Shown: positions 7,747 through 11,248 of the stretch, piece after piece | How the letters are laid out: every line of letters starts with the position of its first letter | Position numbering within the stretch: the first letter of the stretch is position 1 | Source of the DNA: a virus | Lineage: Duplodnaviria > Heunggongvirae > Uroviricota > Caudoviricetes | Length of the DNA stretch: 12,227 nucleotides | Direction: 5' to 3' (one strand) | IMG/VR virus record: IMGVR_UViG_3300045971_000195 | Span: 64,001 to 76,227 of that record | Translations under genes and position numbers: made by a program | The notes under the pieces: generated by a model | Database searches by the model: none | What the model saw: the letters and a program-made list of their open reading frames with translations, nothing else | Told to the model about the DNA's origin: nothing

Positions 7747-7904
7747 TACTGTGATGTCTACTATTTTGCCAAATATATTTCTTTAAGTGAGGCAACACAC
7801 ATACTTAAATGTCTTATTGTATTATACTGATGTACATCCTGTACTTTACTTGTAGTGAAGATTTGGATACTGTGCGTAAGTATTATAAACATCCGGAGAC
7901 CCCA

Positions 7905-8576
7905 ATGTTATCACAAAAAACAATTGCCTATGTAAGTCCGAACAAGGATACTACTATAGAAGTAGTATTCGGTATAAAAGTTTCGAACCATGATTCGATT
8001 CAAGAAATTTTACCGTTATTGAGTACGTTAAAGTTTAACACAGATTTAATTCTGATTGACATTGAGAAATTTTCCGAGTTTAGTGGATCGGATGTTTATG
8101 ATATCGTGAACTCTTTGGCAACATTAATAAACTGCACTGTATGCAGAATCGAACCAGGTAAACCAGTTCGAAGACGAGCATTTATTGCAGTTGCAGTTGA
8201 TACTGACACAGATGTAACTATAATGAAGCAAGCCCTTAGTTCCAATATCGTTGGGCTGTATCCAAGGGGGTTAGGATTTACACTTGATGAAAAGAAATGT
8301 GCAATTACTAAGTTGCTCTCCGGTGAATCTCATATACCCGAGAAAATTTCCGAATTAATTAAACCTAAAAAGAAAACAAAGCAAAACAAAGGTATCGAGT
8401 TAACTATCAGACAGGAACAAATTCTCACTCTAATTAAGGAACGTGGATCAAGCAATAAGATGATTGCTCGAACTCTTGATATTTCCGAAAGTACTGTTAA
8501 ACTCCATGTATCGTTGATCTTTAAAAAGTTCGGTGTTAAAAACAGAACACAACTTGCAGTGTTTTCAAAAATCTAA
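7905..8576 (+). CDS. NarL/FixJ-type response regulator (degenerate receiver + LuxR HTH), about 223 aa
   Basis: C-terminal LTIRQEQILTLI...SNKMIARTLDISESTVKLHVSLIFKKFGVKNRTQL is a classic LuxR HTH. DLILIDI and KQALSSNIVGLYPR resemble receiver beta3 and alpha4-beta5. ATG 7905 has GGAG 6 nt upstream and gives typical NarL length; the track's 7809 start lacks an SD. Confidence 0.85.
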   Translation: MLSQKTIAYVSPNKDTTIEVVFGIKVSNHDSIQEILPLLSTLKFNTDLILIDIEKFSEFSGSDVYDIVNSLATLINCTVCRIEPGKPVRRRAFIAVAVDTDTDVTIMKQALSSNIVGLYPRGLGFTLDEKKCAITKLLSGESHIPEKISELIKPKKKTKQNKGIELTIRQEQILTLIKERGSSNKMIARTLDISESTVKLHVSLIFKKFGVKNRTQLAVFSKI

Positions 8577-8739: not shown

Positions 8740-9513
8740 ATGGCAGATATTGTAACCGGCACTGTAACAGGCCAAGTAGACAACACAGCGTTATTACAAG
8801 ATAACGCAGACATTCGTCGTGAAAACGCACAGTATAGTTCAGACATTCGTCGTGAAACCGCTAAAGAAGCAAACGACTTGCAATTAGAAAATATGAAGGG
8901 ATTTGACCGTGTTAATGCCGACGTATTGAGATCAGGATGGGCAAACACAGATGCAACTAAAGACGCACGTTTTGAAATTGCAGATCGCATCGCGCAAACA
9001 TCCGCTATGGACTCAGCTCAAGGAACAGCTTTCTACATTTCAGCTCAAAAGAACGCAACAGATGCTGCAACAGCTCTTGCCGGCCTTACAGCACTGCAAG
9101 CCGCTAACACAGCAGCGATCCAACGCGAAGTAGCATCTAATGGCGATCGTGTCGCAGCAGCAAATGCGTTAGAAGCAGCTAAGAACGCAGCAGCAACAAT
9201 TGTAGGTCAATTACAACTTACTGGTGTTGTTCGTGATGAAGGCGATAGAACTCGTGCTTTGATTAACGATCTAAAATATCACGATCTAAGTCGTGCACTT
9301 GTAGAACGCAATGCAGAGTTGGTAGAAGAACGCGAAGGTCGTCGTCACTGGAGAGACTCTGCTGGCCAAAATCAATTTGGTGCACAGTTTGCTCAACTAC
9401 AAAGTATGATGCAAAATTTCAACAGTCAACTATCTGACACCCGTCAGGGCATGGTTAACCTAGGAACAATGACCGGTACTACTCAGTCCGCATCATCTAC
9501 AAACGTCAAGTAA
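8740..9513 (+). CDS. Ala/Gln/Asn-rich helical protein of unknown function, 257 aa, with 11-residue periodicity and a conserved-looking C-terminal QxxxNxGxM motif
   Basis: SD AGGAG at 8728-8732 and ATG 8740 (the track's TTG 8692 is unlikely). DIRRE repeated 11 aa apart; EGDRTRALIN segment; no TM helix or enzyme motif. Confidence 0.85.
   Translation: MADIVTGTVTGQVDNTALLQDNADIRRENAQYSSDIRRETAKEANDLQLENMKGFDRVNADVLRSGWANTDATKDARFEIADRIAQTSAMDSAQGTAFYISAQKNATDAATALAGLTALQAANTAAIQREVASNGDRVAAANALEAAKNAAATIVGQLQLTGVVRDEGDRTRALINDLKYHDLSRALVERNAELVEEREGRRHWRDSAGQNQFGAQFAQLQSMMQNFNSQLSDTRQGMVNLGTMTGTTQSASSTNVK
8807..8857 (+). repeat. 18-bp direct repeat (cagacattcgtcgtgaaa) at a 33-bp period
   Basis: Identical copies at 8807-8824 and 8840-8857, both covering the DIRRE codons. 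Confidence 0.95.
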
Positions 9514-9538
9514 TTAGTTCGCTTTGTGAGTAACAACT

Positions 9539-9571
9539 AAGGGCGGGTTCCAAAAGAGCTCGCCCTTTTTT
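9539..9571 (+). terminator. Strong intrinsic terminator between the 257-aa gene and the collagen-like gene
   Basis: GGGCGGGTTC-CAAAA-GAGCTCGCCC followed by T6 (10-bp stem including G-U pairs). Confidence 0.9.
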
Positions 9572-9584
9572 ACAAGGAATTAAA

Positions 9585-10103
9585 ATGAATGCGTTAGAAT
9601 CGAGACTGATACAGTTAAACGATGCGTTGCTGCGGATATCAAGGAGGGAGCCAATTGAGCTTGAATTGATTCAACAAGCAACACAGGCATTATTTGGAAC
9701 TGAGCAGCGTTTCCCAGCATTTGATACTGGACCTGGTAACGATACTGTAGTAATAAACGAAACACAACCAGGACCACCCGGGCCTCCAGGCCCAGTCGGG
9801 CCTCCAGGCCCAGTCGGTGTTTGTACTTTCACTTATCAATCAATTTTAGTAACCCAGGATTATATAGCCGTTGTAAGTGATTACTATATCGGAGTGAACA
9901 GCACCTCGACCGTTACGATAATTTTGCCTCCAAATTGTGAAAGCGGCAGCAAAATAGTAGTAAAAGCTGAAATGGGATTTCCGGATATAATAATTTCAAC
10001 AAGCGACGGAAGCACAATTGATGGAGCAGCCAACTCTATTATAGAACTACCTTGGCAATCAAAGCAACTATTTTGCCAAGGTGGCAACTGGTTTATAATT
10101 TAA
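9585..10103 (+). CDS. Short collagen-like protein with a C-terminal beta-rich domain, 172 aa
   Basis: GPP GPP GPV GPP GPV G triplets, then a C-terminal domain ending STIDG...ELPWQSKQLFCQGGNWFII, a pattern recalled from phage fibre/adhesin-associated domains. SD AAGGAA at 9574-9579. Confidence 0.8.
   Translation: MNALESRLIQLNDALLRISRREPIELELIQQATQALFGTEQRFPAFDTGPGNDTVVINETQPGPPGPPGPVGPPGPVGVCTFTYQSILVTQDYIAVVSDYYIGVNSTSTVTIILPPNCESGSKIVVKAEMGFPDIIISTSDGSTIDGAANSIIELPWQSKQLFCQGGNWFII
9780..9815 (+). repeat. Perfect tandem 18-bp duplication (gggcctccaggcccagtc x2) encoding GPPGPV x2
   Basis: Identical adjacent copies at 9780-9797 and 9798-9815. Confidence 0.95.
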
Positions 10104-10119
10104 ATTTTAGGAGTTAATC

Positions 10120-10320
10120 ATGTACTACGATCATATGCATCCATATTCACGTTATCCATATCCGTATTATCCAACACGTTCGTACTCGTACCCGTACGGT
10201 GGGTATTATCCACCGTACGATTTTGGCGGAGACATTGCGTTACATCAGTCTATTATCAATTCTGGATATATGAATAGTGTTTACCAAAATGCGCTCGTCA
10301 ACAACTTATATCGTTATTAA
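10120..10320 (+). CDS. Tyr/Pro-rich small protein, 66 aa
   Basis: SD AGGAG upstream; 17 Tyr in 66 aa (13 in the first 33); C-terminal QSIINSGYMNSVYQNALVNNL motif. Confidence 0.8.
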   Translation: MYYDHMHPYSRYPYPYYPTRSYSYPYGGYYPPYDFGGDIALHQSIINSGYMNSVYQNALVNNLYRY

Positions 10321-10329
10321 AGGAATATC

Positions 10330-10767
10330 ATGTACAAAAAAACAACTACTACAGTTGAGGAATACTTCGATGCTGCATCTCAAATTGCACCGCAAATTGC
10401 ACCTCAAGTTATGCCACCGTTTCCCTTCCCAGAAAAACCGCTGTCGGGGCCGTATGCACACCCTTTCTCCCCGCTCGCACTTCATCCAAGTGCCCGCCCA
10501 ATAGTTCCGTTAGCGATTGATCCTAAAGCATTTAAACTGATTCTTCGGTTAGATGTTCCACTAATGCTTAAATTGCTAGAATATGCTAAAGAAAGCGCAG
10601 TGTCAGATACCGCTCTTCATCAAATAGTAGAGAAGATGATCGATCTATGTGATTATGGTAAAGTGCTTGAGATGGAAGATTACAGTGCTATTATAGAGGC
10701 AACGGCACCCGTTGTTCCGCCTATTGAGCCGCCTGTCGAACCACCTGTTGTTCCTCCAACAGTGTAA
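10330..10767 (+). CDS. Hypothetical protein, 145 aa: helical core flanked by Pro-rich arms
   Basis: SD AAGGAA. Core LDVPLMLKLLEYAKE...LHQIVEKMI...LEMEDY, recalled as a recurring aquatic-phage hypothetical. QIAP repeats at the N-terminus and PVVPPIEPPVEPPVVPP tail. Confidence 0.8.
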   Translation: MYKKTTTTVEEYFDAASQIAPQIAPQVMPPFPFPEKPLSGPYAHPFSPLALHPSARPIVPLAIDPKAFKLILRLDVPLMLKLLEYAKESAVSDTALHQIVEKMIDLCDYGKVLEMEDYSAIIEATAPVVPPIEPPVEPPVVPPTV

Positions 10768-10798
10768 TCATGCGTTATCCGGCATATTATTTAATACT

Positions 10799-11248
10799 AT
10801 GGAAAATTCGATAGATCAGGCATTGTTGGAAATTTTGCGGATGGCCCGAGAGCTGACAATTAATGAATACAAAGATAGACGAGCTGAACTCCATAATCGA
10901 TGGCTTGCGGAGTCTGAACGGATGTGGCGAATGTCAAGGGCACGATTAGTGTACCCAACAATTCCGCCACATCCAACAGAGACTGAAATATTGGCCCGAG
11001 CAAAAATATTAATGAATTTTGTAGCAGTATCGGTGCCTGATACAGAACTAGTTCAGGTAGCGGAGCCGATAGTTGATGTTTTACCGACTATCGTGACGCC
11101 CCTTATGGTAGAAGTAGAACCGGAGTCACCACCAATAGTTACATCCGATCTTCCTTTGAAGACTACCCCTCCGGAGTCACTACCGCCAGGCGGAATTTTA
11201 CCGAGTGTGCGTAGACGGCTAGAAGAGATGAAAGCAGGATGGAAATAA
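10799..11248 (+). CDS. Hypothetical protein, about 149 aa, with a Pro/Glu/Val-rich C-terminal half
   Basis: First ATG after the upstream stop (no clear SD). LLEILRMAREL...EY...W...YP...PTETEILARAKILMNFV resembles a small hypothetical recalled from large phages. Confidence 0.7.
   Translation: MENSIDQALLEILRMARELTINEYKDRRAELHNRWLAESERMWRMSRARLVYPTIPPHPTETEILARAKILMNFVAVSVPDTELVQVAEPIVDVLPTIVTPLMVEVEPESPPIVTSDLPLKTTPPESLPPGGILPSVRRRLEEMKAGWK

What the first reader, a model, noticed from the sequence alone, without database searches (positions are those of the whole stretch)
9445..10320. Two unrelated island proteins end in the same motif, in exact register
Seen: QGMVNLGTMTGTTQSASSTNV (9445-9507, end of the 257-aa protein) aligns without gaps to QSIINSGYMNSVYQNALVNNL (10246-10308, end of the 66-aa protein). 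Seven of 21 positions are identical (Q,N,G,M,Q,A,N) with conserved hydrophobics, giving Q-x-h-h-N-x-G-x-M-x4-Q-x-A-x3-N-h, while the rest of the proteins share nothing. Known: Q/N/G ladders in register underlie curli CsgA/CsgB and Fap amyloid repeats, where major and nucleator subunits share a repeat. Inference: a co-polymerisation (beta-arch/cross-beta) tag or shared targeting signal that lets the Tyr-rich peptide decorate or nucleate the major protein's polymer.
Basis: partly seen in the sequence, partly recalled or inferred. Interest (0 to 1): 0.8.

Follow-up and report, generated by a model that had tools for sequence, protein, structure and literature searches.

The report
Shared tail module in phage proteins
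A long helical protein and a tiny tyrosine-rich protein of uncultured huge freshwater phages carry the same conserved 30-residue end piece. It is a real shared building block, probably used to assemble or dock both proteins in one fibre-like structure, and there is no sign that it is an amyloid.

Summary
In the window the two tails share 7 of 21 residues. That is the weakest pair among 21 related phage genomes, where the range is 7-15 of 29.

- A profile built only from the tail of the 257-aa family finds, apart from that family, only small same-strand ORFs 0.6-2.6 kb downstream. The reverse profile finds the last 30 residues of the 257-aa family.
- Profile-profile comparison gives E 1e-7.
- Q, N and G at spacing Q-x3-N-x-G are the only residues invariant in both families.
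- Among 1.84 billion representative proteins the module occurs only in these two families.

Both genes sit in a conserved cassette of huge phages. Its order is a GerE/LuxR regulator, the all-helical protein followed by a terminator, 1-4 collagen-stalk proteins with a phage-fibre knob fold (Z 11-12), then the Tyr/Arg/Pro-rich mini-protein.

The first half of the module has helical (heptad) periodicity, not strand periodicity. It is single-copy and lacks curli and amyloid-signalling signatures.

My best reading (about 0.45) is a homologous coiled-coil-end and tail module that oligomerises or docks both proteins at one site of a fibrous, probably virion-associated, assembly. The cross-beta reading is not excluded (about 0.1). 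Binding itself is untested.

The parts
7809..8576 (+). GerE/LuxR-type regulator that heads the cassette
   Evidence: Pfam GerE E 5.8e-16. A homologue lies directly upstream of the 257-aa family gene in 25 of 64 related loci by tblastn, and also in L066 and L067.
8740..9513 (+). 257-aa all-helical protein (P0001), a family of more than 540 metagenomic 'hypothetical proteins'
   Evidence: Homologues, alignment A1. AF2 gives one helix over residues 16-235 (pLDDT above 90 for most of 30-180) and a tail 236-257 below 50. No Pfam, PHROG or NCBIfam hit.
9406..9510 (+).
   Evidence: Among the best-conserved parts of the family: majority frequency 0.81 (as for residues 166-200) against 0.54 for residues 1-165. 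Q236, V239, N240 and G242 are invariant. Aligned to the small family by hhalign.
9539..9571 (+). Intrinsic-terminator-like hairpin plus T-run directly after the 257-aa gene
   Evidence: A 12-bp stem within a -26.7 kcal/mol fold of 9511-9584, z -4.2. A hairpin plus T-run lies within 110 nt downstream in 27 of 47 distinct related loci, with different stem sequences.
9585..10103 (+). Collagen-stalk protein: N-terminal helices, GPP triplets, C-terminal beta knob
   Evidence: GPPGPPGPVGPPGPVG is read directly from the sequence. Homologues carry Pfam Collagen. The AF2 knob has pLDDT above 90. The fold matches phage CBA120 TSP4 (Z 12.0), the Solidus tailspike (11.5), the KP1 baseplate (11.3) and the Pa223 capsid-spike knob (10.7). 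Present in 55 of 64 loci, often as 2-4 tandem paralogues.
10120..10320 (+). 66-aa Tyr/Pro-rich mini-protein (P0002), with AGGAG 8 nt upstream and 16 nt after the collagen-like gene's stop
   Evidence: Translation, sequence. A 75%-identical homologue keeps the C-terminal half almost unchanged. The profile finds 232 further small proteins.
10213..10311 (+).
   Evidence: The small-family HMM hits it at E 1.6e-8. Q43, N47, G49, V54 and Q56 are invariant in the small family.
10330..11248 (+). Two further same-strand cassette ORFs (145 aa Pro-rich; 154 aa), with no motif and no known family
   Evidence: The 154-aa protein has homologues in 12 related loci in the same position, the 145-aa protein in 1. 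No Pfam, PHROG or NCBIfam hit.

Best explanation
The two proteins share a homologous C-terminal module of about 30-35 residues: S-Q-[LI]-x2-[TV]-x-Q-[GS]-[MI]-x-N-[FY]-G-x-M-x2-V-x-Q-x-[SA]-x2-N.

In the long protein the module is the end of a roughly 220-residue helix that probably forms a coiled coil. It consists of two last heptads with L/I, T/V, M/I and F/Y in the core positions, a Gly cap, and a 15-residue polar tail. If this stretch is helical, the invariant S, Q and N lie on the face away from the core, as expected for a contact surface.

The mini-protein is a disordered Tyr/Arg/Pro-rich arm fused to a free copy of this module. I propose that the module oligomerises and/or docks. It would bring the mini-protein to the same site as the long helical protein, or into the same bundle end, within a fibrous assembly that also includes the neighbouring collagen-stalk/knob proteins. 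That assembly is most likely a virion appendage of these huge phages.

Shown: the homology, the conservation, the restriction to two families, the synteny, and the fibre fold of the neighbouring gene.

Inferred: the coiled-coil state, the exposed polar stripe, docking, and virion location.
For: 1. Homology of the module: one-way and reciprocal HMM hits with clean reversed controls, and hhalign E 1e-7. Q, N and G are the only columns invariant in a joint alignment. Intermediate forms exist, such as a 93-aa small protein whose tail is almost the long-family consensus.

2. Selection acts at the protein level. The two coding stretches are 27/63 identical as DNA, and 6/21 at third positions. The tail is among the best-conserved parts of the long protein (0.81 against 0.54).

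3. Specificity. In the window's 76-kb contig, in five related genomes (three of them 100% complete) and in 1.84 billion representative proteins, only these two families carry the module.

4. Helical character. Hydrophobic positions follow 3-4-3-4 spacing through M and F of the motif in both families, and the moment is highest at 100 degrees. S1, Q8 and N12 fall at f/f/c positions. AF2 predicts one long helix up to residue 235.

5. Fibre context. The gene between the two encodes a collagen stalk plus a knob whose best fold matches are all phage virion fibre, spike or baseplate proteins. The Pa223 authors call the matching knob a TNF fold (bioRxiv 10.1101/2025.06.11.659172). The mini-gene usually starts 12-20 nt after a collagen-like paralogue.

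6. A terminator after the long gene in 27 of 47 loci fits a subunit made in excess over the downstream genes.

7. From established knowledge: phage fibre proteins commonly share terminal anchor or trimerisation modules. Examples are the T4 fibritin foldon at the end of a coiled coil and the N-terminal anchors of tailspikes that bind gp10-like adaptor domains.
Against: - No direct evidence of binding or of oligomeric state.
- The tail itself is modelled as disordered (pLDDT below 50) in the monomer.
- No cultured phage carries either family, so virion location is unverified.
- The flanking genes (rIIA/B, AAA ATPase, NAMPT, RNR in relatives) are not a structural module.
- A dedicated LuxR-type regulator is unusual for virion genes.
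- About 60% of related loci have Tyr-rich mini-proteins without the module. The partnership is therefore optional, and the long protein's tail must have a function of its own.
- Same-genome tails are only marginally more alike than cross-genome tails (permutation P 0.01-0.04, not corrected for relatedness).
Confidence: 0.45

Rival explanations
1. Cross-beta (beta-arch, amyloid-like) co-polymerisation tag. The Q/N/G-rich tails stack in register, so that the mini-protein nucleates or decorates a polymer of the long protein, as with curli CsgB/CsgA or amyloid signalling motif pairs.
For: - The invariant residues are Q, N and G, and conservation alternates over Q-x-[MI]-x-N-x-G-x-M.
- The logic of 'a short motif shared by neighbouring, otherwise unrelated genes' is how BASS/HRAM amyloid signalling motifs were found (bioRxiv 10.1101/2020.01.06.895854).
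- The tail is not confidently folded in the monomer model, as expected for a segment that orders only on assembly.
Against: - The module is single-copy in each protein.
- The first half has helical, not strand, hydrophobic periodicity in both families, and it continues a predicted long helix.
- There is no Curlin repeat hit, and by inspection no signal peptide.
- No NLR/STAND partner carries the motif, and the G-phi-Q-phi-G core is absent.
- The long family keeps its tail where the mini-protein has none.
Confidence: 0.1
2. Common recognition element for a third factor that processes or folds both proteins, such as a protease, a modifying enzyme or an assembly chaperone, instead of a structural contact between them.
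For: - A papain-family (Peptidase_C1) gene lies inside the cassette in some lineages: L031 7329-8117 at E 1.6e-15, and L066.
- If the module is helical, the invariant polar residues would be surface-exposed.
- The module is near but not always at the C-terminus of the small proteins.
- From established knowledge, conserved C-terminal chaperone modules shared by unrelated phage fibres are known, for example the S74 intramolecular chaperone domains.
Against: - The peptidase is absent from the window and from most loci.
- No candidate reader protein co-occurs strictly with the module.
- The module is far smaller than known chaperone domains and matches none.
Confidence: 0.12
3. Competitive mimic. 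The mini-protein carries a free copy of the long protein's tail in order to occupy its binding site, acting as a cap, length or number regulator, or assembly chaperone. It is not a co-resident structural component.
For: - The free-standing copy of a fibre's terminal module sits in a small downstream gene. The same layout was noted by this scan for collagen-like side tail fibres of Stx prophages (e1-435942, not checked here).
- The mini-protein's tail evolves much faster than the nearly invariant long-protein tail.
- The terminator suggests lower expression of the downstream genes.
Against: - Nothing distinguishes this from co-docking with the tools available here.
- The Tyr-rich arm is conserved in composition across more than 230 proteins, which suggests it does more than act as a plug.
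Confidence: 0.12
4. Relic of a partial duplication or recombination. The small gene picked up the 3' end of the long gene, and each copy is now kept for unrelated reasons such as stability or solubility.
For: - Intermediate small proteins carry a near-consensus long-family tail, including upstream helix residues.
- Many lineages have lost or never had the module in the mini-protein.
Against: - The same three residues stay invariant in both families over deep divergence while third codon positions are randomised.
- That points to one shared constraint, most simply a shared partner or a shared fold.
Confidence: 0.08
5. Chance or compositional resemblance between two Q/N/S/T-rich ends.
For: - BLASTP does not report the alignment.
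- 7 identities in some 21-residue window occur in 4.4% of shuffles.
Against:: independent profiles, reversed controls, position-specific invariants, and recurrence in at least 19 distinct genomes.
Confidence: 0.01

Closest known systems
T4 fibritin (gp wac) C-terminal foldon
   Same: A short (about 27-30 residues) conserved element at the very C-terminus of a long coiled-coil phage fibre protein. In fibritin it nucleates trimerisation and sets the register.
   Different: No sequence similarity: the PDB profile search with the module found nothing at E up to 10. The foldon is a beta-hairpin propeller, whereas the first half of this module looks helical. No free-standing foldon mini-protein is known to me. 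The oligomeric state here is untested.
Shared anchor modules of phage tailspikes and fibres that dock on gp10-like adaptor domains (CBA120 TSP4, T4 gp10)
   Same: Otherwise unrelated fibre proteins carry a common short terminal module that docks them on one platform. The neighbouring gene's knob has the same fold as the matched domain of TSP4 (residues 78-175; Z 12.0, rmsd 1.9 A over 89 residues).
   Different: Known anchors are N-terminal folded domains. Here the module is C-terminal, about 30 residues long and partly helical. No docking on the knob has been shown.
Amyloid signalling motif pairs (BASS1-10, HRAM, PP/RHIM) in adjacent genes
   Same: A motif of about 20-25 residues rich in Q, N and G is shared by two neighbouring, otherwise unrelated proteins. 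This is the same discovery logic (bioRxiv 10.1101/2020.01.06.895854).
   Different: Those motifs sit at the C-terminus of an effector and the N-terminus of an NLR/STAND protein, and they act in cell-death signalling. Here both are C-terminal, no NLR carries the motif, G-phi-Q-phi-G is absent, and the periodicity is helical.
Curli CsgA/CsgB repeats
   Same: S, Q, G and N are conserved at fixed spacing, and there is a major plus a minor subunit.
   Different: Curli subunits have five tandem repeats, a Sec signal and csgEFG secretion partners. Here there is one copy, no signal peptide and no Curlin_rpt hit.
Collagen-like fibre followed by a mini-gene that encodes a free copy of the fibre's terminal domain (Stx-prophage side tail fibres; scan note e1-435942)
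   Same: A small downstream gene repeats the C-terminal module of a larger fibrous protein of the same operon.
   Different: There the copied part is a folded tip domain (PF06820) of the collagen-like fibre itself. Here it is the end of a different, coiled-coil protein, fused to a Tyr-rich low-complexity arm. I did not check that note.
BclA/C1q-type architecture (collagen stalk plus trimeric TNF-like knob)
   Same: This applies to the middle gene of the cassette, which has a GXY stalk followed by a compact beta knob. The Pa223 knob that it matches is described as a TNF fold.
   Different: This concerns the neighbour, not the motif. No sequence relation to BclA was found.

Membership tests
Curli (CsgA/CsgB) amyloid subunits | Several tandem repeats of S-x5-Q-x-G-x-G-N-x-A-x3-Q (Pfam Curlin_rpt) | tested here: not met
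   One copy per protein. No Pfam family at E up to 0.01 for either protein.
Curli (CsgA/CsgB) amyloid subunits | Sec signal peptide and export machinery genes nearby | tested here: not met
   The N-termini MADIVTGT... and MYYDH... have no hydrophobic signal (by inspection). No csgEFG-like gene appears in the window annotation.
Amyloid signalling motifs (BASS/HRAM/PP/RHIM) | Motif shared between the C-terminus of an effector and the N-terminus of an adjacent NLR/STAND NTPase | tested here: not met
   Both copies are C-terminal. The motif is absent from every other ORF of the 76-kb contig, including the AAA ATPase, and from five related genomes.
Amyloid signalling motifs (BASS/HRAM/PP/RHIM) | G-phi-Q-phi-G core (RHIM/PP/BASS3) | tested here: not met
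   The consensus of both families has Q-[GS]-[MI]-x-N-[FY]-G, with no G-phi-Q-phi-G. Other BASS families were not compared, because their logos are figures that are not held.
Amyloid signalling motifs (BASS/HRAM/PP/RHIM) | Forms cross-beta fibrils and cross-seeds | not testable with these tools
   Needs peptides and ThT, fibre diffraction or ssNMR.
Fibritin-type foldon (C-terminal trimerisation nucleus of a coiled-coil fibre) | A conserved element of about 30 residues at the extreme C-terminus, directly after a long coiled coil | tested here: met
   Helix 16-235, then a conserved tail to residue 257. In the long family the motif ends 0-3 residues from the C-terminus in 47 of the 50 long representatives listed, those in which the Q-x3-N-x-G core was found.
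Fibritin-type foldon (C-terminal trimerisation nucleus of a coiled-coil fibre) | Sequence or fold relation to the T4 foldon | tested here: inconclusive
   The profile of the module against all PDB chain sequences gives no hit at E up to 10. The tail is not confidently modelled, so no fold comparison was possible.
Fibritin-type foldon (C-terminal trimerisation nucleus of a coiled-coil fibre) | Drives trimer formation | not testable with these tools
   Needs SEC-MALS, AUC or a structure.
Terminal targeting peptides shared by many cargo proteins (encapsulin cargo-loading peptide, T4 capsid targeting sequence) | The same short terminal peptide on several unrelated proteins of one genome, next to the shell or capsid genes | tested here: not met
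   At most two proteins per genome carry it, including three 100%-complete genomes of 250-400 kb. Only two families carry it among 1.84 billion representatives. In the mini-proteins it can be followed by up to 65 residues.
Phage virion fibre/spike knob domain (gp10-like/TNF-like); applies to the middle gene 9585-10103 | Compact beta domain superposable on the knob or adaptor domains of solved phage fibre, spike and baseplate proteins | tested here: met
   VIA-align Z 12.0, 11.5, 11.3 and 10.7, with rmsd 1.8-3.0 A over 84-91 residues. The next unrelated rows fall to Z 8 or lower. Foldseek E 7e-6 to 1e-4.

The most novel reading that the evidence does not exclude
The module is a self-templating polar-zipper or cross-beta assembly tag. 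Under this reading, the cassette builds a previously unknown phage-made fibrous or condensate-like matrix: coiled-coil rods, collagen-knob fibres and Tyr/Arg-rich mini-proteins that could be cross-linked through tyrosine. The matrix would be switched on by the cassette's own LuxR-type regulator and would not be part of the virion.
Probability: 0.1. Interest if true: 0.8.

Novelty: new variant of a known kind. Interest (0 to 1): 0.5.

Why it matters
Huge phages carry many conserved genes with no known role. This work defines one widespread cassette and links its members through a shared module. The long family has more than 540 protein clusters at 90% identity and the small family more than 230, and all are annotated as hypothetical.

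That gives a concrete, cheap experiment: express the last 70 residues of the long protein with and without the mini-protein. The result would assign a first function to two large orphan families. A 30-residue module that may act as a portable oligomerisation or docking tag, like the fibritin foldon, could also be useful as a protein-engineering part. If the minority cross-beta reading were right, it would be the first amyloid-type co-assembly motif pair in a phage.

Tried and rejected
- Complex prediction of two copies of the long protein's residues 190-257 plus the 66-aa protein, both with alignments, gave no verdict (score 0.00, controls not run). It says nothing either way.
- tblastn of both proteins and of the collagen-like knob against 50,697 GenBank phage records gave no match. 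Megablast of the whole window also gave none.
- Pfam, PHROGs and NCBIfam gave nothing for either motif protein.
- PDB sequence searches with the module profile and with the long-family profile gave nothing meaningful.
- The ESM Atlas lists only unnamed viral clusters for the long protein.
- The search for sequencing runs returned two pond-metagenome DNA holders, probably the source samples, and no RNA holder was listed. Expression could therefore not be examined, and read laying was not used.
- Co-variation of the two tails within genomes shows a small excess (P 0.01-0.04). The long-protein tail is almost invariant and the genomes are related, so I draw no conclusion from it.
- I tested whether tail variants track presence of the adjacent collagen-like gene. 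The variant tail (QGTVNFGTMSGNAG...) is commoner in loci without it but also occurs with it, so this is probably clade structure.
- The contig carrying an intermediate small protein (P0316) was too short to show its long-family partner.
- The sigma-70 promoter scan gave nothing usable.
- A literature search for tyrosine-rich or collagen-like proteins in huge phages found nothing relevant.
Full report
WHAT THE WINDOW IS

The window is the last 12.2 kb of a 76-kb IMG/VR viral contig that CheckV rates 21% complete. It carries rIIA and rIIB (PHROG E 1e-126 and 5e-79), a phage AAA ATPase, an HNH endonuclease, a nucleoside deoxyribosyltransferase-like gene and a NAMPT fragment. Relatives of the gene in question lie on contigs of 250-400 kb with terminal repeats. 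One lies on a 328-kb NCBI metagenome-assembled record. The source is a pond metagenome. The organism is therefore an uncultured huge freshwater phage.

THE OBSERVATION

The coordinates and residues are exact.
- The ungapped 21-residue alignment has 7 identities and BLOSUM62 score 33. It is the best such window between the two proteins.
- Whole-protein shuffles reach that score in 0.15% of trials. Shuffles confined to the two C-termini reach it in at most 0.005%.
The window alone is therefore only suggestive.

FAMILY EVIDENCE

The 257-aa protein has more than 540 homologues in metagenomes, all 'hypothetical'. In an alignment of 58 of them the last 30 residues, together with residues 166-200, are the best-conserved part. 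The majority-residue frequency there is 0.81, against 0.54 for residues 1-165. The consensus is SQLQETRQGMVNFGTMAGVGQ(T/S)STSNNVR.

I fetched 64 related loci, 47 of them distinct, from IMG/VR.
- An HMM built only from that tail was run against all 16,277 stop-to-stop ORF segments of these loci. Besides the homologues themselves, it found only small ORFs. All are on the same strand and 0.6-2.6 kb downstream, with E from 1.6e-5 to about 1e-2 and weaker ones in the same position.
- Reversed sequences gave nothing better than E 1.1.
- These small ORFs encode 60-110-aa proteins. Each has a Tyr/Arg/Pro-rich N-terminal arm (Tyr 15-53% in the IMG/VR loci), followed by SQ[IL]..[VI].Q[SN][IM].N[FY]G.M..V.Q.
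- The reciprocal HMM, built from the small proteins, hits the last 30 residues of almost every long homologue, with E down to 8.6e-10. It hits the window's 66-aa protein at 1.6e-8 and the window's 257-aa protein at 7.6e-6. That model was seeded by the first search, so it is not fully independent.
- In a joint alignment the only invariant columns are Q, N and G at Q-x3-N-x-G.
- The window's pair is the most diverged of 21 genome pairs, at 7 of 29 identities against 8-15 elsewhere.
- The two coding stretches are 43% identical as DNA and 6/21 at third positions. The likeness is therefore old and maintained on the protein, not a recent conversion.

HOW SPECIFIC THE MODULE IS

- In the window's own 76-kb contig only these two ORFs carry it.
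- In five related genomes, three of them 100% complete, there are one or two carriers. These are the long protein and, where present, the mini-protein.
- An exhaustive HMMER search of 1.84 billion representative proteins found 152 hits at E up to 0.001.
- The hits fall into two classes. One is proteins of about 200-450 aa, plus fragments of them, with the module 0-3 residues from the C-terminus.
- The other is proteins of 43-130 aa, mostly Tyr-rich, with the module followed by 0-65 residues.
- Some small proteins have a tail almost identical to the long-family consensus, including helix residues upstream of it. This shows common descent.
- The module is thus a two-family affair. It is not a general targeting peptide, and it does not need a free C-terminus.

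THE CASSETTE

Synteny is conserved. The gene order is:
- a GerE/LuxR-type regulator (25 of 64 loci by tblastn, plus L066 and L067);
- the long protein (all loci);
- a collagen-like protein (55 of 64 loci, often 2-4 tandem paralogues);
- the mini-protein, usually starting 12-20 nt after a collagen-like paralogue;
- sometimes a papain-family peptidase, and a 154-aa protein.

Nineteen of 47 distinct loci have a mini-protein with the module. Many others have Tyr-rich, sometimes Cys-rich, mini-proteins without it. One of these is a complete 400-kb genome in which the long protein keeps its tail.

A strong hairpin plus T-run follows the long gene in the window and in 27 of 47 distinct loci, with unrelated stem sequences. 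This fits a subunit made in excess over the downstream genes.

STRUCTURES

AF2 with the family alignment models the long protein as one helix over residues 16-235, with pLDDT above 90 for much of it. The last 22 residues are of low confidence.

The collagen-like protein is modelled with two N-terminal helices, an extended GXY stretch and a C-terminal beta domain with pLDDT above 90. That domain superposes on the following solved structures:
- phage CBA120 tailspike 4, residues 78-175: Z 12.0, 1.9 A over 89 residues;
- the Acinetobacter phage Solidus tailspike: Z 11.5;
- a Klebsiella phage KP1 baseplate protein: Z 11.3;
- the C-terminal knob of the Pseudomonas phage Pa223 capsid spike: Z 10.7;
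- with lower Foldseek scores, T4 gp10 and gp9.

The Pa223 authors describe that knob as a TNF fold on a trimeric spike (bioRxiv 10.1101/2025.06.11.659172). The middle gene is therefore a trimeric fibre of the kind phages put on virions. That is the main reason I place the cassette in a fibre assembly.

WHAT THE MODULE LOOKS LIKE

In both families the hydrophobic positions before and inside the first half of the module follow 3-4-3-4 spacing. The hydrophobic moment peaks at 100 degrees (0.23-0.27) and not at 170-180 degrees (0.01-0.14). With L/I as position a, the core is L/I, T/V, M/I, F/Y. The conserved S, Q and N then fall at f, f and c, on the outward face. A Gly follows, and then a polar stretch with conserved M, V and Q and no clear periodicity.

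This suggests the last two heptads of a coiled coil, a cap and a short tail. It is inference, because the monomer model is not confident here.

INTERPRETATION

The most economical reading is a homologous oligomerisation and/or docking module. It would work like the fibritin foldon or the shared anchors of tailspikes. It would bring the Tyr-rich mini-protein to the same place as the long helical protein in a fibrous assembly. I give this about 0.45.

Close variants are a mimic that competes for the tail's site (0.12) and a common handle for a processing or folding factor such as the papain-like peptidase seen in some cassettes (0.12).

It lacks the defining features that I could test. A relic without a shared function gets 0.08, and chance 0.01.

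LIMITS

- Nothing here shows binding, oligomeric state, expression or virion location.
- The one complex-prediction job gave no verdict.
- No cultured relative exists in the phage collection.

This scan's earlier notes on the same stretch (hendecad periodicity of the long protein, the Tyr-rich arm, the LuxR-headed island) are compatible with what I found. A note on another genome describes a comparable layout in Stx prophages, a fibre followed by a mini-gene with a free copy of its end. I did not check that note.

Noticed in passing
window 9539-9571: Strong intrinsic-terminator-like hairpin plus T-run right after the 257-aa gene. The simple terminator scan missed it. A hairpin plus T-run, with unrelated stem sequences, is found at the same place in 27 of 47 distinct related loci.
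   Followed up: yes
window 9585-10103; L041 1724-2913; L049 6742-9336: The collagen-like gene has a C-terminal knob with a phage fibre/spike fold (Z 11-12). Related phages carry 2-4 tandem paralogues of it, which suggests a variable set of fibres.
   Followed up: partly
L031 7329-8117; L066 12473-13225: A papain-family cysteine peptidase (Pfam Peptidase_C1) sits inside the cassette in some lineages, between the collagen-like gene and the Tyr-rich mini-gene. It is absent from the window.
   Followed up: partly
L038 7369-7623; L059 2236-2445; L023 7374-7577; L016 7888-8289; L050 8524-9086: Other lineages have Tyr-rich mini-proteins at the same position without the shared module. Some are also Cys-rich or Trp/Asp-rich, and L050 has two in tandem, one of them with a decayed module.
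   Followed up: partly
window 8740-8900: The N-terminus of the long protein (MADIVTGT...) and the DIRRE-type 11-residue repeats are also conserved across the family. Many database homologues have variable N-terminal extensions of 30-90 residues, which may be mis-called starts or real additions.
   Followed up: no
L067 13146-14747: In one relative a 533-aa pectate-lyase-fold protein (tailspike-like; Pfam Pect-lyase_RHGA_epim, faint Mtd_N) lies three genes after the collagen-like gene, directly followed by ribonucleotide reductase genes.
   Followed up: no
L066 11576-11710 and the N-termini of P0311, P0319 and P0346: Odd Ile/Thr/Val/Asp-rich short ORFs or N-terminal extensions lie upstream of some mini-genes. 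They may be wrong-frame readings of Tyr-codon-rich DNA and not real peptides.
   Followed up: no
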